Source: a virus
Lineage: Duplodnaviria; Caudoviricetes
Strand: one strand, 5' to 3'
Length of the DNA: 64,000 nt
IMG/VR virus record: IMGVR_UViG_2562617096_000005
Positions within the stretch are counted from its first letter, which is position 1; the number at the start of each line of letters is the position of its first letter. Made by a program: the position numbers and the translations under genes. This document shows positions 1 through 13,685 of this stretch, piece after piece. The notes under the pieces were generated by a model, which searched no databases, was not told the origin of the DNA, and worked only from the letters and a program-made list of their open reading frames with translations.

Positions 1-1683
1 ATGGCACGAGCAAAAAACAGAGGGTATCAGCAGAGTTTCTCTCCCTCTTACACAATCCGCCGCTGGCGGCTGGGCATTTATATCCGGCTTTCAAAGGAAG
101 ATTTGAAAAAAGGAAAAGACGATAGCAACAGCGTAAAAAACCAGCGTGACCTACTGAACGATTTTTACCGACGCAACATTGACGAGTTTGAAAGTATCAC
201 GGAATATGTAGATGACGGACATACTGGAACGGACGCTAACCGTGAAGATTTTCAACGGCTCTTGGCGGATGTCATGAGTGGTAAAATCAACTGCGTTATA
301 GTAAAAGACCTGTCCCGCTTCGCACGAAATTATAGCGATGCAGGAAGTTTGATCGACAACCTGTTTGTTCAAATGGGTGTTCGCTTTCTCAGCCTTGCTG
401 AGAATGTGGACAGCTACAAGAACCCCGACAGCGTTTCAAATATCATCGTTCCCATTACAAACGTGATGAACGATAATTACTGCTATCAGACTTCCAAAAA
501 GATCCGGCAGGTATTTGATTACAAACGGCGCAACGGCCAGTATATCGGAGCATTTGCTCCTTACGGCTATGTAAAGCACCCAAAGGACAAGCACAGGCTG
601 ATTGTTGATCCCGATGCTGCTGAAAATGTCAAACTCATTTTCACAATGCTTATTCAAGGGTCATCAAAACGTGCTATCGCGTTGTACCTGAACGAACACG
701 GCGTACCGAGCCCCTCGGCTTACAAGGTACAAAAGGGCTTGCCTGTTTCTACAAGAGGGTATGACGATCCTATGTGGGGAGCCCGCATGATCCACTCCAT
801 TCTTACTAATCCGACCTACACCGGGGATTTAGCCCAAGGCCGGAGCCGAGTGAAAAGCTACAAGGTACACCAGATTGAAGCCGTTCCCCGTGAGGAATGG
901 GTGGAAGTGGCTGGAACGCATGAGGCCATTATCGACTATGAAACTTTCGACAAGGTACAGGCTCTCCTACAGCGTGATACCCGTACTTCCCCGAAAGGCC
1001 GTGAGGTACATTTATTCAGCGGCTTTCTGAAATGTGCCGATTGCGGGCGGGCCATTACCCGATGCGTTGGCAAGAACAACAATGTATATTATTCTTGCTC
1101 AACCTACAAGAACCGTTCCCGGACGGCCTGCACCATGCACTCAATCAAGCATGAGCGGCTGGAGGCTGCTGTTCTGTTCGCCGTACAACATCAGGTGCAT
1201 TTGGCTGTTTCCTACTCGGAAATCGTCACACAGATCAATTCCGCTCCAATCAAAAAAAGCCAGTCTTACCGACTGGACGATCTGATAGCTGCAAAAGAGC
1301 GGGAACTGACAAAGATAACACGCTACAAGCAGTCTCTTTATCAGGACTGGAAAGACGGTGAAATCACCCAGCAGGAATACCGGGATATGAAGGCCGATTA
1401 TGAACGGCAGACTTCTGATATTTCCGCAGTGCTTACCCGGCTGAACGCTGAACGCGCAGAACTGGCAAACGGTGTGGACAACGAGCATCCTGCACTGGTA
1501 GCCTTTATGAAGTATCAGAACATTGAAGCCCTCAACCGTGAAATCTTGGTTGAACTTGTGGACTATATCAAGGTCTATGAAAACGGCAATATTAGCGTGA
1601 AATTCAAATTTGCTGACGAGCTCCGCAAGATTGCCGAGTACATTGAAATTAACACTACGGAAGATACCGCAGTAGCGGGCTAA
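1..1683 (+). CDS. Large serine recombinase (resolvase + recombinase + Zn-ribbon + coiled coil)
   Basis: YIRLS catalytic Ser, DDGHTG, KDLSRFARN, APYGY, CADCG Zn ribbon. Confidence 0.95.
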   Translation: MARAKNRGYQQSFSPSYTIRRWRLGIYIRLSKEDLKKGKDDSNSVKNQRDLLNDFYRRNIDEFESITEYVDDGHTGTDANREDFQRLLADVMSGKINCVIVKDLSRFARNYSDAGSLIDNLFVQMGVRFLSLAENVDSYKNPDSVSNIIVPITNVMNDNYCYQTSKKIRQVFDYKRRNGQYIGAFAPYGYVKHPKDKHRLIVDPDAAENVKLIFTMLIQGSSKRAIALYLNEHGVPSPSAYKVQKGLPVSTRGYDDPMWGARMIHSILTNPTYTGDLAQGRSRVKSYKVHQIEAVPREEWVEVAGTHEAIIDYETFDKVQALLQRDTRTSPKGREVHLFSGFLKCADCGRAITRCVGKNNNVYYSCSTYKNRSRTACTMHSIKHERLEAAVLFAVQHQVHLAVSYSEIVTQINSAPIKKSQSYRLDDLIAAKERELTKITRYKQSLYQDWKDGEITQQEYRDMKADYERQTSDISAVLTRLNAERAELANGVDNEHPALVAFMKYQNIEALNREILVELVDYIKVYENGNISVKFKFADELRKIAEYIEINTTEDTAVAG

Positions 1684-1727
1684 CCCCCGCTACAAACCCC
1701 TTTGACAGTGTGTTTTCCTAATAGGCG
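1..1727. mobile_element. Right end of a higher-GC integrative (serine-recombinase) element inserted in the phage RNAP gene
   Basis: Sharp compositional shift near 1727 (GC-richer recombinase vs AT-rich phage DNA). The recombinase is followed by CCCTTTGACAGTGTGTTTTCCTAATAGG, and the phage RNAP frame stops within this sequence. Exact junction is approximate. Confidence 0.7.
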
Positions 1728-2239
1728 CTAATCATATGTAAATAGTCCATAGAAGTATCGTGATGCATATAATTTTTCTTTTCAGGATTGTAATATCCCT
1801 TTTCTTTCGCTAAAAAACCAAAGAAGAACGGCTTAATAACACGCCCTGTATCATCTCTCCGTATCCATTTTTCCTTTAATTTTCTTAACTCATCAGCGAT
1901 TGTAATATCAAATTCTTTTTTTGCAGCATCAATAGCAAGATTGCTTAACACGGCTAACTGGCAGATATCAAAATAGACTTCTTCAATGTCTTTATATTTA
2001 GCTCCATGATTTAACTGATGCCACATGTGAGTTTGAAGTTCCTGAGAGAGATTGATAATATCTCCGATTTTATTTACTGAAGTTTTAATATCTAAATCAG
2101 CTTTTTGCTCCGCTGTGTAGAACCTAGTTGTTTTTTTGGCTTTTACCATATTAGTAGGAACTTTAAATAGCTCATAATTCTTTTCGGCAGCTTTTATAAA
2201 TAATTCATTATTGGTAATCATAATTGTGTCTGAATCGAA
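1718..2239 (-). CDS. YonO-like single-subunit phage RNA polymerase, exon 2 (C-terminus probably truncated by the element insertion)
   Basis: Frame reads FDSDTIMITNN from 2239, completing GAD|FDSD; contains KIGDIINLS and AIDAAKK motifs typical of RdRP/YonO-like double-psi-barrel polymerases. Confidence 0.85.
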   Translation of the reverse strand, partial: FDSDTIMITNNELFIKAAEKNYELFKVPTNMVKAKKTTRFYTAEQKADLDIKTSVNKIGDIINLSQELQTHMWHQLNHGAKYKDIEEVYFDICQLAVLSNLAIDAAKKEFDITIADELRKLKEKWIRRDDTGRVIKPFFFGFLAKEKGYYNPEKKNYMHHDTSMDYLHMISAY

Positions 2240-3241
2240 CGTTTATACCCCATGTCACCATGTATTTAAATGGGCTTAGACTATCTCATCTTCCTCTTGT
2301 CTTCATAATAGAAGAGTAGGAGTCCGGCGCTTCCACATAGAGAATTTCACTCTACATGTACAGACTTCATCTTCTCTGAGAGAAGGTATGTCTTAGTCGT
2401 TACATCTTCAGGAAAATTGCTTTTCCAGCTTGACACGATATTGTCTTTATAAAATTTCGAATAAATAATTTTTAATATATTTTTTATTATTTGCAGATTT
2501 GGAAATATATTCTATCACGGTCCTCTGCGAAAAATTTTGGAATTCTGGGATGGTGTTATTACAATATTTTGCACAATCTTTTATACAGGGAAATATCTTT
2601 TCACTTTTGTTTGGGAAAATTAACTTTATTTGTTTCGCCCTTCCATTTGCACTGCCATGTCGGGCTAGTTTTTTCTTTTCATCAGGATTATTTTTATAGA
2701 ATTCTTTTAGTGTAGTATTTTTATAATTAGAATTATTACTACCGTAGCGTTTATAATGTCCAACTTTTGCACCATGTTGGATATTTTCTTTATGCGATGA
2801 CCATTCAAGGTTATTGACATTATTATTTGTGCGGTCATAATCTTTATGATTTACTTCAGGCAGGTTATTGGGATTTGGCAAGAAGTGCTCTGCAACCAAC
2901 CTATGTATTTTAACAGTTTTTGTTTTTCCTTCTTTACATAGTTTTCCTTGTAAATAACCATCTGAATTTGTGTTAAGTGCAATTAATATTCCATTTCGAT
3001 ATTGTGTAACACCATTTCTTTTTAAAATTGCTCTGTCTTTACTTCTGAGTTTTCCAGTATTACTGATTTCGTACAATTCTTCATATTCTTTTACTTCTTT
3101 CCAAATTTCTTCCATATATTCCTTTCATTTTTATAAAGAGTTTCATCGTTAGCATTCATTATTGAACACACCCTAGATTTCTAGGTTCACCGAATTTTTT
3201 ACTTACAGATTACTCCGTAAGGCGGACTTCGATTTTATCCA
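2240..3241 (-). ncRNA. Group I intron in the RNAP gene
   Basis: Exon 1 ends in U (GAT at 3244-3242) and the intron ends in G (2240). P7 elements ACGACTA (~2400) and AGATAGTC (~2280) on the minus strand. Splicing restores an in-frame DFDSD. Confidence 0.88.
2447..3115 (-). CDS. Intron-encoded NUMOD4-HNH homing endonuclease
   Basis: EIWK...YEISNTG NUMOD4; HRLVAEHF...VNHKDYDRTNNNVNNLEW HNH. Confidence 0.93.
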   Translation of the reverse strand: MEEIWKEVKEYEELYEISNTGKLRSKDRAILKRNGVTQYRNGILIALNTNSDGYLQGKLCKEGKTKTVKIHRLVAEHFLPNPNNLPEVNHKDYDRTNNNVNNLEWSSHKENIQHGAKVGHYKRYGSNNSNYKNTTLKEFYKNNPDEKKKLARHGSANGRAKQIKLIFPNKSEKIFPCIKDCAKYCNNTIPEFQNFSQRTVIEYISKSANNKKYIKNYLFEIL

Positions 3242-5098
3242 ATCCGCACCATTGAGTCTTTCCAATATATTCTCACCAATACTATTTATACATATAATTT
3301 CATCTGTTAAATTGAAATACTTATCAATTAATGCACATTCCACATTATTAGATAATAAGATATTTGAAACACATACGTGAGGCGACCTTGAACCAAGAAT
3401 TTTCTTTCCATAAGGAAATCTTGTGGTATGCACATTTCCTACCCCTAATATTGACTCTCCATAAAATTCACCTATCGTATTAAGAAGTAATTCGTATGGA
3501 TTACCCAACAAAGTAGAGTAGTTACCTTCAATCAGGACATGACCAGATTTTAAATTTCTCTTATATGATTTGATTAACTCATTCACAAAATCCTTATACC
3601 ATTTTGTTTCACAAAACTTATTGTTTAATCCCATGAGTTGATAAATGATTTCATTCTTTGTCTTGAGATTATTCGATTCAAACTCATGCTCATCTGAATA
3701 TTTTACATAATGACGAACTGCGGCAGGTTCAGTTTTAAGTAAGTACATATAATCCAGAGAAGGTTGAATAAATTCTCTCACCTGCTTTTTTGTGAGCTGT
3801 AGCGTATTAATCAACTGGTAGTGACTTTGCACCATTCGTCCATCAAAAAAGTGTGTTTTCTTTTCATGCTTAACAACACCAAAGGTACTGTCGATATTTT
3901 TTAACCACTGTTCAATCGTTCCAAATTTTAGATACTTAATACTACTTGGTGTAGTTATAAGTTTTATATCCTCAATGCTTTCTGCAAGAGTAAATCCATT
4001 AAGTTGACTAATATCACTTATATTATTATCTTTAAAAAATTGTTGAATGTTTGTGTTGAAGCAACACGATTTGAAAAAGTTTTTTCTGAGAAGTATCATG
4101 CCATATTTGTCATAGATACCCATAATAGATTTGTCAATAAGAGATAGTCCATCCCAGATTGAGTTAGATATTTTTACTTGCTTTTCACCTGTTTGTAAAG
4201 AATATTTACCATTTTCTTCTTTCATTTCAGTAGCAATTACCGTATCAGTAAATGTACTCTCATAATCATCTAAGATTAAAATATTTTCTGGTTTAATTTC
4301 AATAGTATCAATAATAGAAGATAGTGTAAGAGCAATATACGCTTCCAGTGCAGCTAAATCAACTTTATCTCCTTCTTTTAATTTAATACCGCACATTTCC
4401 CATTTGTGCATTCGCTTGTATAGCTTTTCATCAATAAATAAACATTTACCAACACGACTGCTTCCAGAAGAACGTTTAAATCGCACATAATGTATTCCGT
4501 TACACCAAAATCCATTTTTATAAAGTTCATATCTTAGATTAGCAACAGAGTTTAATGTACCATTTTTCTTTATTTTATAAACACCATCTTCATAAATAAA
4601 ATTGTCTTTAAGAAGAGTTTCAGGAACTATTTTATCAGGTGGAACGTATATACCTGTCTGTATAGCAATAAGTTCGCCGTTTGCTACGTATACACAGTTT
4701 GTAATACTGTTTTGACTTATTTCATAACCAAATTTTACATATAGATATTTTGGATATTTACATTTACCTTTTTTCTTTTGTTCCTCATTCTCTTTTATAC
4801 TTCCTATTTTATTGTATTCCTTATTAGAATATTTAAAAGTAACATTGATAACTCTATCAGTGTGTTCCATTTCATTGCGTTCATACCATGAGAACCGCTT
4901 ATTGCGATATTCTTTTAAATACACTTCTCTTAATTTTATTAAATCTAAACTATAGTCTAAGGTGTTTTTAAATTTGGCAATATTATATGAACCATCTTTA
5001 CGTTTCAGGTTATATCCCTGTTTAGGATATAAGTAATTAGCAATATAAATATCTTTTGCATCTAGGGATGGAATTTTAATACCATCCAGCTTAATCAC
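3242..5098 (-). CDS. YonO-like single-subunit phage RNA polymerase, exon 1
   Basis: RSSGSSRVGKCLF, WDG, RSPH, ERLNGAD motifs; spliced product about 790 aa. Confidence 0.85.
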
Positions 5099-11274: not shown

Positions 11275-11504
11275 ATTTCAATCCACTTATATATGTAGAA
11301 TGCATCAATATGATTAAAAAAATATCATTGGATTTTGAGGATTTCAATCCACTTATATATATAAAATGCATCAGATGCCAGAAAAGAAACACTGGTGGCA
11401 GATGTGATTTCAATCCACTTATATATATAAAATGCATCCTACGGATTTAAGCCTTTCCGTTGCCAAAAGTAGATTTCAATCCACTTATATATATAAAATG
11501 CATC
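11275..11504 (-). CRISPR. CRISPR mini-array 1: four 32-nt repeats, three 34-nt spacers
   Basis: Repeats at 11275, 11341, 11407 and 11473; minus strand GATGCATTTTATATATATAAGTGGATTGAAAT; the leader-distal repeat (11275) is the degenerate one. Confidence 0.93.
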
Positions 11505-11715
11505 AGCAAATATATATAAGACTTATCTATTATCATTGTGCATTTTATACATATTTGTGGTTATAAAAGCATTATCTGTTTTCGAATAATTAACATATTG
11601 CTATGATTAACTATCGTACTAACTGATTTCTTTTATCTACTTCTGGTGCGAATCTATTAAGAAATATATGTTCACTGTCTAATCGCACCAAGGTGGGGTT
11701 GAACCTCCTACCTAT
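11505..11715 (-). ncRNA. Leader / putative tracrRNA of array 1 with anti-repeat
   Basis: Anti-repeat at 11539-11560 matches 19/22 nt of the repeat; GGTGCGA...TCGCACC inverted motif; paralogous to 12067-12275. Confidence 0.65.
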
Positions 11716-11838
11716 ATTTTATATATAATATTTATAATATTTATAATATTAGTCATGTTATTTTACTTGTCTGAGATATAATAATCTTACCTATGTAAGT
11801 TCTATCTATAATTTATAGGCTACCGCCCTAGACAGGTA

Positions 11839-12066
11839 ATTTCAATACACGCATGTATGTAAATTACATCTCTATTGTTTTAAACGCTTTAGTGTACTAA
11901 AACTTATTTCAATCCTCACATATATGCAAATTACCTCGCAGCCAGAAAAAATACTGGTGGAACTTCTGATTTCAATCCGCACATATATATAAATTACCTC
12001 TAAAAAAGAGATATTCCATTTTAGCACCCCCTTGATTTCAATCCACACATATATGTAAATTACATC
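11839..12066 (-). CRISPR. CRISPR mini-array 2: four 32-nt repeats, spacers of 35, 31 and 34 nt
   Basis: Repeats at 11839, 11906, 11969 and 12035; consensus minus strand GATGTAATTTACATATATGTGTGGATTGAAAT. Confidence 0.88.
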
Positions 12067-12275
12067 AGCAAAAATACATAAATGTGACTATCATATTTTG
12101 TATAATTTACATAATGTTATGGTTATAAAAGCAATATTTTGTTTCGTATATATAGTGATAGTAATCATAGTATATATACTACTATCAAATTTCTTTTATC
12201 TACTTTAGTGCGAATTGCCATGTAATTTATGTGTACTTTATATTCGCACTTGGCGGCGTTGAACCTGCAACCATA
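12067..12275 (-). ncRNA. Leader / putative tracrRNA of array 2 with anti-repeat
   Basis: TAATTTACATA at 12103-12113 matches the array-2 repeat; AGTGCGAAT...ATTCGCACT hairpin; begins right after the nuclease stop codon. Confidence 0.65.
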
Positions 12276-12280
12276 TATTA

Positions 12281-13685
12281 TTAAGCAATAGATTTTTTAT
12301 ATTTTTTCTTTGAAATATTTAAAATATTTAAAATATTTATTGCTGCATTTATATCTCTATCATGTTGTATACCGCATTTGGGACAAATCCACTTTCTTAT
12401 TTTTGTATCTTTTACCTGAGTATTTACAAATCCACAGCTACTACATGGTTGAGTTGATTTATCGTATCTTCCGATTGCAACAACTGGAACATTATATTCT
12501 TCACCTTTTCTTTTTAACAGTGCTAAAATTTCTCCCATAGCTGCGTCTGATAAATTATTATGTTTCACTCTTGTTTTTCTTGACATTTTTCATCATATCC
12601 TTTACAGATAAATTTTCGATTCCTATAAAGCTTGACTGTCTGATAACATCTAAAACCATGTTCTCCATGTGATGTTTACGCTGTCTGGCTACTTTTCTTT
12701 CAAGCTTTGCGGCTTGTAGTTTGGTTTCCTGATAACGTTTTGATGGAAGAGTATCATGGTCAACTTTATATTTTTCTCTGAATTTAATATTTGCAAAACC
12801 TTCTCGTCTTGAAAGTTGTCTATGTAGCTGTTCTCTATGCTTTTGAACTTCGCCATGTTCTCCATTTTTAAATCTTGGATTACTATATTTTGTTCCATCA
12901 GATAAAATCATTAAATCAGTAACGCCAACATCAATTCCTATTTCTTTTTTATTATCACTGTCTTTAATAAGTTTATATACATTCTTTAAACAAATCTGTA
13001 TAAAATAATCTCCGCAGTTGTCTTTTTTAATAGTGAAGAGGTGAGCTGTACGCTTATGTAGTTCACAATATTCTTTGAATGTCATGTTGCAAGTTTCATC
13101 AAATCTTAGAATTCTAAGATAATTTTTCATTCCTCTTGCTTTGATCCGTCCAACTTTATTTAGGTTGAGATGTACTACATTGTCGTTAGTTTCATTGAAA
13201 ATAATTTTGCTTAATGTCTCCTGATACGTATAACTTCTTCTTGGATGCTTCTTTGAGTAATAAGGGGCTTTACTGCTTTCGATTGGTCGCTTTACACCTT
13301 TTCCATTTGTTTTCTTTTTCTGATTGCCTTCACTTACTTGAGCGTCTAGCCTTTTTGATAAGTCTCTTTTAAAAACTCCATTGTTACCGGATAGAGCAGA
13401 AGCAGGGATAATAGAAATACTAGGTCGTTCTTCTCTGAGTTTTTCTAAATAATCTTTTTTTATCATAGTATTAATATTTGGAAAGTGTATCTTTTGTTTG
13501 CTTTCCTTGTCTTCACGTTCAGTTGTATTTGTAAGATTAGTAAACATATCGTATACCGCTATGTTGCATGCTTTGTGAAGTTCATGAATAATGGTATCAA
13601 TAGTTTCTTTTTGAGAAGAAGTTGGGTACAATCTTAAATTAATTGTATATACAGGTAATTTTACGTACCGTTCAAACATTGTCAT
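12281..13685 (-). CDS. TnpB/Cas12f-like RNA-guided nuclease (~467 aa), split by a 1-nt frameshift at the A5 run 12586-12590
   Basis: LRLYPT N-terminus; RuvC-I GIDVG, RuvC-II GIENL, CSSC/CPKC zinc finger, RuvC-III HDRDINAAINI. Removing one A joins ORFs 12558-13685 and 12281-12586. Confidence 0.88.

What the first reader, a model, noticed from the sequence alone, without database searches (positions are those of the whole stretch)
11505..12275. Anti-repeats inside each leader co-vary with their own repeat (tracrRNA or natural single guide)
Seen: ~35 nt from the leader-proximal repeat, array 1 has TGCATTTTATACATATTTGTGG (its repeat: TGCATTTTATATATATAAGTGG). Array 2 has TAATTTACATA-ATGTTATGG (its repeat: TAATTTACATATATGTGTGG). 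Each anti-repeat follows the changes in its own repeat. The repeats lack the GC-rich hairpin typical of I-C repeats. The two leaders share blocks GGTTATAAAAGCA, TTTCTTTTATCTACTT, GTGCGAAT and GTTGAACCT. Inference: selection maintains a repeat:anti-repeat duplex, giving two paralogous, possibly orthogonal guide scaffolds for one nuclease.
Basis: partly seen in the sequence, partly recalled or inferred. Interest (0 to 1): 0.8.

Follow-up and report, generated by a model that had tools for sequence, protein, structure and literature searches.

The report
Twin tracrRNA–array cassettes of phage TranC

Summary
On the minus strand a TnpB-derived nuclease gene (13685-12281) is followed by two tandem cassettes. 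Each cassette has a ~150-nt folded scaffold, a 22-nt anti-repeat, a 34-nt linker and a four-repeat array.

Each anti-repeat pairs best with its own repeats: -22.3 kcal/mol against -14.3 or weaker for cassette 1, and -17.7 against -7.6 for cassette 2.

In 13 homologous cassettes from related phage contigs, 95% of the proposed base pairs hold. Seventeen pairs show compensatory changes, six of them among the 13 pairs of the main repeat:anti-repeat helix. Shifted controls give 1-5 such pairs.

The nuclease is closest to LaTranC: sequence E = 1.9e-64, and TM 0.81 for a model of a 72%-identical intact homologue. TranC systems are already known to use a tracrRNA plus a CRISPR array, so the anti-repeat is a tracrRNA-type element, not a new principle. 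This scan has already noted several phage TranC-like mini systems on other DNA.

What differs here:
- Two old, diverged, partly non-cross-pairing cassettes serve one nuclease.
- The nuclease is encoded as two conserved ORFs under purifying selection.
- The repeat ends, and less certainly the leader ends, resemble type I-C arrays.

RNA ends, targets, PAM and activity remain untested.

The parts
12558..13685 (-). Effector ORF-A (375 aa): N-terminal region with RuvC-I (GIDVG, D252) and RuvC-II (IENL, E357)
   Evidence: Pfam OrfB_IS605 2.1e-15. 72% identical to the intact homologue P0014. P0014 matches LaTranC with E = 1.9e-64 and TM 0.81. dN/dS 0.06-0.23.
12281..12586 (-). Effector ORF-B (101 aa): zinc-finger TNB domain (CxxC...CxxC) and RuvC-III (HDRDINAA). 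It lies in another frame, overlaps ORF-A by 29 nt, and starts with a conserved ATG (MSRKTR)
   Evidence: Pfam Cas12f1-like_TNB 2.4e-19. Frame analysis. The same split occurs in 7 lineages. dN/dS 0.06-0.21.
12123..12275 (-). Cassette 2 scaffold (tracr-like): P1 12251-12273 with invariant loop GGUUCAAC; P2 12207-12250; P3/P4 12125-12199
   Evidence: RNAalifold consensus and pair counts. Single-sequence fold z = -2.8. Coordinates.
12101..12122 (-). Anti-repeat 2 (CCATAACATTATGTAAATTATA)
   Evidence: Pairs with array-2 repeats at -17.7 to -12.7 kcal/mol, against -7.6 for array-1 repeats. Covarying helix, alignment columns 158-184 with 232-254.
12067..12100 (-). Linker 2 / leader end (34 nt), ending in the conserved ...TATTTTTGCT
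   Evidence: Alignment A1, columns 185-229. The leader end resembles B. halodurans I-C GATTTTCGCT.
11839..12066 (-). Array 2: four 32-nt repeats (12066-12035, 12000-11969, 11937-11906, 11870-11839) and three spacers of 31-35 nt. The repeats differ from each other at 3-5 positions
11716..11838 (-). AT-rich spacer between the cassettes, with a weak promoter-like site (11761->11734) about 10 nt before scaffold 1
   Evidence: The number of promoter-like sites is not above the shuffled expectation, so this is only a candidate.
11561..11715 (-). Cassette 1 scaffold (tracr-like): P1 11691-11713; P2 11645-11689; P3/P4 11563-11636
   Evidence: Single-sequence fold z = -4.75. Coordinates.
11539..11560 (-). 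Anti-repeat 1 (CCACAAATATGTATAAAATGCA)
   Evidence: -22.3 kcal/mol with array-1 repeats, against -14.3 or weaker with array-2 repeats. It is the best sense-strand partner of repeat 1 in the 64-kb window.
11505..11538 (-). Linker 1 / leader end (34 nt), ending ...TATATTTGCT. It contains a weak promoter-like site (11536->11509)
11275..11504 (-). Array 1: four 32-nt repeats (11504-11473, 11438-11407, 11372-11341, and a degenerate terminal repeat 11306-11275) and three 34-nt spacers

Best explanation
The stretch holds the guide-RNA genes of a phage-borne TranC-type (TnpB-derived, type V-like) RNA-guided nuclease.

Layout (shown). Reading the minus strand, the effector gene is followed by two paralogous cassettes. 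Each cassette encodes four parts:
- a ~150-nt scaffold with four helices (P1-P4);
- a 22-nt anti-repeat;
- a 34-nt linker;
- a four-repeat mini CRISPR array.

Mechanism (inferred).
- The scaffold plus anti-repeat acts as a tracrRNA.
- The anti-repeat pairs with the 5' two-thirds of a repeat. It pairs in cis with the first repeat, giving a long hairpin that is in effect a natural single guide. It pairs in trans with the later repeats.
- The invariant repeat end GGAUUGAAAU stays free next to the guide, possibly pairing with the invariant P1 loop GGUUCAAC.
- The spacer 3' of the repeat is the guide.
- One nuclease binds both scaffolds through the blocks they share. Those blocks are P1, the base of P2, AAGUAGAUAAAAGAAAU and AUUGCUUUUAUAACC.

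The nuclease (two ORFs shown; how they are expressed is inferred). It is probably made as two polypeptides from two overlapping ORFs. It would then cut DNA next to a 5' PAM, by analogy with LaTranC (5'-TTC).

The two repeat:anti-repeat pairs have diverged together, so each tracr prefers its own array.

Spacer acquisition (inferred). Spacers turn over at the leader end between near-identical phages (shown). The repeat ends are I-C-like, and the leader ends may be too. The host's type I-C Cas1-Cas2-Cas4 probably does the acquisition, because the record has no adaptation genes.
For: Strand, layout and blocks.

RNA structure (on alignment A1 of 13 cassettes from the window, L001, L003, L004, L005, L008, L010, L012 and L014):
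- 95.3% of cells are paired.
- 17 pairs have two-sided changes (0 of 500 shuffles reach this).
- Slid controls give 1-5 such pairs and 36-43% pairing.
- In the R:AR helices, 7 of 17 pairs show compensatory change.
- G.U cells outnumber A.C cells 42 to 14, so the paired molecule is an RNA of the effector's strand.
- Single-sequence fold z-scores are -4.75 and -2.82.

Own versus cross pairing.

Orthologues are closer than paralogues, and the L008 cassette is a mosaic.

Effector:
- Pfam OrfB_IS605 plus Cas12f1-like_TNB.
- The intact homologue P0014 matches LaTranC with E = 1.9e-64.
- AF2 model pLDDT 90.9; Foldseek top hit LaTranC 9jfq, TM 0.81.
- The catalytic D/E/D residues and the zinc finger are invariant.
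- Both ORFs have dN/dS 0.06-0.23 with dS 0.8-3.
- There is one effector and two scaffolds in the record.

Array turnover with a shared trailer-end spacer in L001/L002 and in L014/L015.

No Cas1, Cas2, Cas4 or TnpA in the 92-kb record.

Published TranC/compact Cas12 guide layout (three to four stems, then the anti-repeat:repeat stem, then a short unpaired stretch before the guide), clade 11 repeats of 32-36 bp, no adaptation genes of their own, and a 5'-TTC PAM: bioRxiv 10.64898/2026.03.27.714800 and 10.1101/2025.09.28.678669.
Against: - Transcript ends, processing, and the choice between cis and trans pairing are all unknown.
- No protospacer was found for any of about 39 spacers. Targets and PAM are therefore untested.
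- Promoter-like sites are not above chance.
- AR2 on its own is not an outlier in the window scan.
- Array 2 has heterogeneous repeats, which hints at low turnover in this phage.
- One related cassette (L014_u2) pairs better with a sister cassette's repeat than with its own.
- The effector is not one open frame. Activity of a two-piece form is inferred from conservation only.
- The P1-loop/repeat-end pairing never varies, so covariation cannot test it.
- The record is only about 53% complete. Absence of adaptation genes or of a second effector is not proven.
Confidence: 0.8

Rival explanations
1. Decayed relic. The effector gene is frameshifted and dead. The anti-repeat complementarity is only what remains of a once-working tracrRNA. 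The cassettes are no longer under selection in this phage.
For: The effector is in two frames. Array 2 repeats differ from one another at 3-5 positions. No targets were found.
Against: The same two-ORF layout recurs in seven lineages at 91% to 51% identity, with a conserved ORF-B start codon. In L010, L012 and L043 the ORFs show a 4-nt stop/start overlap. Both ORFs have dN/dS 0.06-0.23 at saturating dS. All catalytic and zinc-binding residues are invariant. Leader-end spacers differ between near-identical phages.
Confidence: 0.07
2. DNA-level element. The inverted repeat formed by the anti-repeat and the first repeat acts as a DNA hairpin, cruciform or protein-binding palindrome at the leader, for instance for spacer integration. 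It would not act as an RNA duplex.
For: An inverted repeat in DNA would show the same two-sided covariation. It sits exactly at the leader-repeat junction, where integrases act. The linker end is conserved.
Against: G.U pairs outnumber A.C pairs 42 to 14 on the effector's strand, an asymmetry expected for RNA and not for double-stranded DNA. The anti-repeat continues directly from four covarying upstream helices that have no DNA rationale. The closest characterised relatives use exactly this RNA layout.
Confidence: 0.05
3. Hijack of host type I-C interference. The arrays are processed and used by the host's I-C Cascade. On this reading the anti-repeat is an antisense regulator that masks the first repeat.
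For: The repeats are 32 nt long and end in GTGGATTGAAAT, like I-C repeats. The leader end resembles the B. halodurans I-C leader. The sister group L016-L020 carries I-C-like repeats with their own hairpin.
Against: The window's repeats lack the GC hairpin that I-C repeats carry: -3.5 to -6.5 kcal/mol against -10.8 to -15. Selection acts on pairing with the scaffold-linked anti-repeat. A cognate nuclease gene is always adjacent.
Confidence: 0.06

Closest known systems
TranC (transposon-CRISPR intermediate) systems, in particular LaTranC / TranC clade 11. Source: Jin et al., Cell 2025;188:6283, doi 10.1016/j.cell.2025.09.004. The paper is not held in the library; it is cited in PMC13565253 and described in bioRxiv 10.1101/2025.09.28.678669 and 10.64898/2026.03.27.714800
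   Same: - TnpB-sized RuvC effector homologous over its full length (E = 1.9e-64, TM 0.81, about 31% identity).
- tracrRNA-type scaffold between effector and array, ending in an anti-repeat.
- Repeats of 32-33 nt in short arrays.
- No adaptation genes of its own.
- Firmicutes/gut and viral settings.
   Different: - Two tandem scaffold-array cassettes with co-diverged repeat:anti-repeat pairs, and three cassettes in relatives.
- The effector is encoded as two conserved ORFs.
- Repeat ends, and possibly leader ends, resemble type I-C arrays.
- The anti-repeat lies only 34 nt from the first repeat, so the first guide may be made as one RNA.
- Clade membership, PAM and dual use of reRNA were not tested here.
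Cas12f (type V-F) with tracrRNA, for example Un1Cas12f1 and AsCas12f
   Same: - Miniature RuvC plus zinc-finger effector.
- Long structured tracrRNA whose 3' end pairs with the repeat.
- The guide lies 3' of the repeat.
   Different: - Structural similarity is much lower (TM 0.50-0.57, 14-16% identity).
- No curated Cas12f model reaches its cut-off.
- No cas1/cas2/cas4 next to the locus.
IS200/IS605 TnpB with omega/reRNA (ISDra2)
   Same: - Same protein fold and catalytic layout (E about 1e-26; TM 0.56-0.60).
- The scaffold RNA starts at the 3' end of the gene.
- The guide follows the scaffold.
   Different: - No TnpA and no transposon ends.
- The guide region is replaced by exchangeable spacers in arrays.
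- The scaffold is separated from the repeat by an anti-repeat and a linker.
Type I-C CRISPR arrays (B. halodurans, Roseburia hominis)
   Same: - 32-33-nt repeats ending in GTGGATTGAAAT.
- Leader end ATTTT(C/T)GCT directly before the first repeat.
- Spacers of 31-36 nt.
- A 5'-TTC PAM, which the TranC relative shares.
   Different: - No GC-rich repeat hairpin.
- No I-C cas genes in the record.
- The repeat body pairs with a tracr instead of folding on itself.

Membership tests
TranC (transposon-CRISPR intermediate) systems | TnpB-derived RuvC effector homologous to characterised TranC proteins | tested here: met
   The intact homologue P0014 is 72% identical to ORF-A. It matches LaTranC with E = 1.9e-64 over its full length. 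Foldseek top hit 9jfq, TM 0.81/0.77. Placement in numbered clade 11 was not tested, because no reference tree was at hand.
TranC (transposon-CRISPR intermediate) systems | CRISPR array adjacent to the effector, with spacers that change | tested here: met
   Two arrays of four repeats. Leader-end spacers differ among L001/L002/L003 and between L014 and L015, while the trailer-end spacers are shared.
TranC (transposon-CRISPR intermediate) systems | Guide RNA split into a tracrRNA (scaffold plus anti-repeat) and a crRNA | tested here: inconclusive
   Scaffold and repeat:anti-repeat pairing are supported by covariation. It could not be tested whether the RNA is physically split or made as one hairpin with a 34-nt loop, because no RNA data were available.
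TranC (transposon-CRISPR intermediate) systems | RNA-guided DNA cleavage with a short 5' PAM (TTC for LaTranC), and ability to use both CRISPR RNA and reRNA | not testable with these tools
   No protospacers were found. Activity needs an assay.
Cas12f (type V-F) | Match to a curated Cas12f family model above its cut-off | tested here: not met
   In NCBIfam only CRISPR_Cas12f2 matches, at 33.5 bits against a cut-off of 450. The best family is guided_TnpB, at 197.7 bits against 100. PADLOC Cas12f profiles do hit (5.6e-37), but they have no curated cut-off.
Cas12f (type V-F) | Adaptation module (cas1, cas2, cas4) in the locus | tested here: not met
   No Cas1, Cas2 or Cas4 match in the 92-kb record. 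The record is about 53% complete.
IS200/IS605 TnpB transposon | TnpA (Y1 transposase) and/or transposon ends, with one fixed guide set by the flank | tested here: not met
   No Y1_Tnp match in the record. The scaffold is followed by arrays with exchangeable spacers.
Type I-C CRISPR array | 32-nt repeat of the form GTCGC-GC hairpin-GCGTGGATTGAAAT, with I-C cas genes | tested here: not met
   Length and the last 12 nt match. The hairpin is absent: repeat self-fold -3.5 to -6.5 kcal/mol against -10.8 and -15.0 for true I-C repeats. The adaptation genes shared by I-C (Cas1, Cas2, Cas4) gave no match in the record; I-C-specific genes such as cas3, cas5d and cas8c were not searched.

The most novel reading that the evidence does not exclude
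A phage weapon built from three co-adapted parts:
- a TranC nuclease that is naturally made as two polypeptides;
- two (in relatives three) co-evolved tracrRNA-array cassettes that are partly orthogonal, so separate arrays can be kept side by side without cross-talk or recombination;
- arrays whose repeat termini and leader ends mimic host type I-C arrays.

On this reading the host's Cas1-Cas2-Cas4 loads TTC-flanked spacers that the phage's TTC-reading nuclease can use directly.
Probability: 0.25. Interest if true: 0.75.

Novelty: new variant of a known kind. Interest (0 to 1): 0.5.

Why it matters
TranC systems were described in 2025 as the step at which a transposon guide RNA split into tracrRNA and crRNA. 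This family shows that step in several states among close relatives:
- a scaffold fused to the first repeat by a 6-bp hairpin (L016-L020);
- a single fixed guide (L042);
- an anti-repeat 34 nt from the array (the window);
- multiplied cassettes (two here, three in L014).

It therefore gives a natural series for testing how guide RNAs split and multiply. The co-diverged repeat:anti-repeat pairs offer ready-made, possibly orthogonal scaffolds for one compact nuclease, which would be useful for multiplexing.

The conserved two-ORF effector would be a natural split site for a miniature editor.

The I-C-like repeat ends, and the weaker leader-end resemblance, suggest how phage systems that lack cas1/cas2 still gain spacers.

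Tried and rejected
Searches and tools that gave nothing:
- Rfam at a permissive threshold: no family matched.
- INPHARED phage blastn of the locus: no match.
- IMG/VR search with the effector protein: nothing confirmed.
- Genome-contig pattern scan: only two chance hits, in GC-rich MAGs.
- Promoter and terminator scan: no more sites than in shuffles.
- Host genomes could not be searched for I-C arrays. The Blautia record behind L012 is not held, virus records have no 'relatives', and a genome handle was required.
- The TranC paper itself is not held.
- A literature search for naturally split TnpB/Cas12f found nothing relevant; this was a limited search.

Protospacer hunts, all negative:
- All 39 distinct spacers against the phage record and all fetched loci: only a 21-of-34 chance-like match.
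- Window arrays against phages at E <= 5: only chance-level hits.
- Arrays of L002 and L014 against phages.
- Exact spacer cores in IMG/VR.
- Exact spacer cores in metagenome contigs.

Readings rejected:
- A sequencing-error or pseudogene reading of the frameshift. The split is conserved and both ORFs are under purifying selection.
- A -1 programmed frameshift. The required shift is +1 or -2. In distant relatives ORF-B has its own start codon overlapping the ORF-A stop.

Full report
**1. What is there**

The sense strand is the minus strand. From high to low coordinates the locus runs as follows.
- A TnpB-like gene in two overlapping frames. ORF-A is 13685-12558 (375 aa, Pfam OrfB_IS605). ORF-B is 12586-12281 (101 aa, Cas12f1-like TNB zinc-finger domain).
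- Directly after the stop codon, cassette 2: scaffold 12275-12123, anti-repeat 12122-12101, linker 12100-12067, array 12066-11839.
- A 123-nt AT-rich gap.
- Cassette 1: scaffold 11715-11561, anti-repeat 11560-11539, linker 11538-11505, array 11504-11275.
- A YqeY-like gene.

The repeats are 32 nt long (GATGCATTTTATATATATAAGTGGATTGAAAT and GATGTAATTTACATATATGTGTGGATTGAAAT). The terminal repeat of array 1 is degenerate, which fits a leader on the anti-repeat side.

The window belongs to a 92-kb IMG/VR provirus record that is about 53% complete. That record holds one effector, two scaffolds, and no Cas1, Cas2, Cas4 or TnpA.

**2.

The four shared blocks each occur exactly twice, about 561 nt apart.

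The two 'anti-repeats' are inverted copies of the repeats, each 34 nt from the first repeat. Calculated duplex energies:

| Anti-repeat | Own array | Other array |
|---|---|---|
| AR1 | -22.3 kcal/mol | -14.3 to -8.7 |
| AR2 | -17.7 to -12.7 | -7.6 |

Against every 26-nt window of the 64 kb, AR1 is the best sense-strand partner of repeat 1. AR2 ranks only about third or fourth for repeat 2. The window alone is therefore suggestive rather than conclusive: two repeat positions show full compensation.

**3. Comparative evidence**

Homologues of ORF-A are common in gut and animal metagenome contigs. I fetched loci at 91% (L001-3), 72% (L004), 71% (L005-7), 62% (L008-9), 59-60% (L014-15, L038-41), 56% (L042) and 51-55% (L010-13, L043) protein identity. 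I also fetched a more distant IMG/VR group (L016-21).

All carry the same scaffold after the gene, or before it, followed by an anti-repeat and an array whose repeat differs from locus to locus.

An alignment of 13 cassettes (A1) gives a consensus of four scaffold helices plus a two-part repeat:anti-repeat helix. Pair counting shows:
- 95.3% of cells paired;
- 17 pairs with changes on both sides, a value reached by 0 of 500 shuffles;
- only 1-5 such pairs, and 36-43% pairing, when the partners are slid by 1-3 columns.

In the main repeat:anti-repeat helix, 6 of 13 pairs have compensatory changes.

G.U cells outnumber A.C cells 42 to 14. This says the paired molecule is an RNA of the effector's strand, not double-stranded DNA and not the opposite transcript.

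The single sequences fold better than shuffles (z = -4.75 and -2.82).

The invariant P1 loop GGUUCAAC could pair with the invariant UUGAA of the repeat end, but neither ever varies, so this cannot be tested.

**4. Two cassettes, one nuclease**

The cassettes share P1, the base of P2, AAGUAGAUAAAAGAAAU and AUUGCUUUUAUAACC. They differ in the hairpin tips, the anti-repeat, the linker and the repeat body.

Each has an orthologue in L001-3 that is closer (82-83%) than its paralogue (63-67%). The duplication is therefore older than the split of these phages. The L008 cassette is a mosaic of the two types.

Multiplication of cassettes is not unique to this phage. L014, L015, L038, L039 and L041 have three each.

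Orthogonality is asymmetric and rests on energies only.

**5. The arrays are alive**

Near-identical phages differ in their leader-proximal spacers and share the trailer-end spacer (L001 against L002; L014 against L015). This is the signature of polarised acquisition.

In the window, array 1 has uniform repeats. Array 2 has repeats that differ at 3-5 positions, so it may be less active.

**6. The effector**

ORF-A and ORF-B together carry the RuvC D/E/D residues and the CxxC...CxxC zinc finger, all invariant in the family.

Compared with the intact 457-aa homologue of L004, the split forms have one extra base after AAG AAA AAC AAG. The evidence that this is not decay:
- The split recurs in seven lineages.
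- ORF-B always starts with ATG (MS[RK][KR][TS]R).
- In L010, L012 and L043 the ORF-A stop and ORF-B start overlap by 4 nt; the L010 and L012 junctions, which I read, are ATGA, with an AGGAG upstream in L010.
- Both ORFs have dN/dS 0.06-0.23 at dS 0.8-3.

I read this as a naturally two-piece nuclease made by translational coupling (inference). A +1 or -2 frameshift is not excluded.

An AlphaFold2 model of the intact homologue (pLDDT 90.9) places the split in a low-confidence loop. That loop lies between the RuvC-II strand and the next helix.

The closest solved relative by sequence and by fold is LaTranC (E = 1.9e-64; TM 0.81). TnpB (TM about 0.6) and Cas12f (about 0.55) lie well behind. No curated Cas12f model reaches its cut-off. 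The NCBIfam 'guided_TnpB' model does.

**7. Comparison with what is known**

TranC systems are TnpB-derived effectors with CRISPR arrays in which the transposon guide RNA has split into tracrRNA and crRNA. The source is Jin et al., Cell 2025, cited in PMC13565253.

Two preprints describe related systems. For compact Cas12 guides, with TranC clades 3 and 11 searched in the same way, they report three to four stems, a final anti-repeat:repeat stem, and a short unpaired stretch before the guide. For clade 11 they report 32-36-bp repeats in arrays of 3-17 repeats and no adaptation genes of its own. For LaTranC they report a 5'-TTC PAM.

The anti-repeat found here is therefore the expected tracrRNA element of such a system. 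The finding is a new variant, not a new kind. Earlier notes of this scan report several phage TranC-like mini systems on other DNA, including multi-cassette and leader-embedded forms. I did not test those.

**8. The type I-C resemblance**

True I-C repeats end in GCGTGGATTGAAAT:
- B. halodurans: GTCGCACTCTTCATGGGTGCGTGGATTGAAAT, preceded by the leader end GATTTTCGCT (PMC6519985).
- Roseburia hominis: GTCGCTCCCTGTGAGGGGAGCGTGGATTGAAAT (PMC4645204).

The phage repeats have the same length and the same last 12 nt. They are preceded by ...TAT(A/T)TTTGCT. The GC hairpin is replaced by an AT-rich body that pairs with the tracr.

With a TTC PAM in the nearest characterised relative, and TTC as the I-C PAM (established knowledge), borrowing of the host I-C adaptation machinery is an attractive inference. 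It is untested: no protospacer was found, and no host genome could be searched.

**9. What remains open**

- The transcript ends.
- Whether the first guide is made in cis.
- Processing of the precursor.
- PAM and targets.
- Activity of the two-piece nuclease.
- Real orthogonality of the two cassettes.

Noticed in passing
window 12281-13685 (-); also L001, L005, L008, L010, L012, L042, L043: The TranC-like effector is encoded as two overlapping ORFs of about 375 and 92-101 aa. The split sits at the same site in seven lineages. ORF-B has a conserved start codon, and both parts are under purifying selection. The split maps to a flexible loop after the RuvC-II strand. The effector is probably a naturally two-piece nuclease.
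   Followed up: partly
L014 3001-4347 and L015, L038-L041 (proteins P0026, P0030): A sister effector has lost the RuvC-I Asp (GIDVG -> GVRIG), the zinc finger and the RuvC-III Asp (HDRDINAA -> HDKAVNQA). It still keeps three scaffold-array cassettes, and their spacers differ between L014 and L015. This looks like a nuclease-dead, still-guided derivative, possibly a repressor or blocker.
   Followed up: partly
L016-L020 (e.g. L020 8170-8510): A more distant group has an intact 439-aa effector (LaTranC E = 8e-85). A consensus TTGACA-17-TATAAT promoter sits directly before the scaffold. The scaffold is fused to the first repeat through a 6-bp hairpin, so this is a natural single guide. The downstream repeats (GTCGCAACTTGCGTGTGTGCGTGGATTGAAAT) look like true type I-C repeats with their own hairpin.
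   Followed up: partly
L042 4398-4660: One relative has a scaffold, an anti-repeat and a single repeat followed by one guide-length stretch, with no second repeat. This is a fixed single-guide state within the same family.
   Followed up: no
window 11373-11406 and 11938-11968 (-): The second spacers of the two arrays are similar (CACATCTGCCACCAGTGTTTCTTTTCTGGCATCT and CAGAAGTTCCACCAGTATTTTTTCTGGCTGC). The first and third spacers are unrelated. This fits separate acquisitions from variants of one target gene rather than duplication of a whole array. No target was found.
   Followed up: partly
window 12067-12076 and 11505-11514; alignment A1 columns 219-229: The last ~10 nt before the first repeat (TAT[AT]TTTGCT) are conserved in all 13 cassettes. 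They resemble the leader end of the B. halodurans type I-C array (GATTTTCGCT). This may be a leader-anchoring signal for a borrowed integrase.
   Followed up: partly
L008 4408-4650: This cassette is a mosaic. P1, the anti-repeat, the linker and the repeat resemble the window's cassette 2 (91-92% in P1 and the anti-repeat). The middle P3/P4 part resembles cassette 1 (88%). This suggests recombination between cassette types.
   Followed up: no
window 1-1683 and 1684-5098: A serine recombinase gene with clearly higher GC (46% against about 30%) sits at the left edge, next to a NUMOD4/HNH homing-endonuclease-like ORF (2447-3115). This looks like an inserted element in the phage.
   Followed up: no
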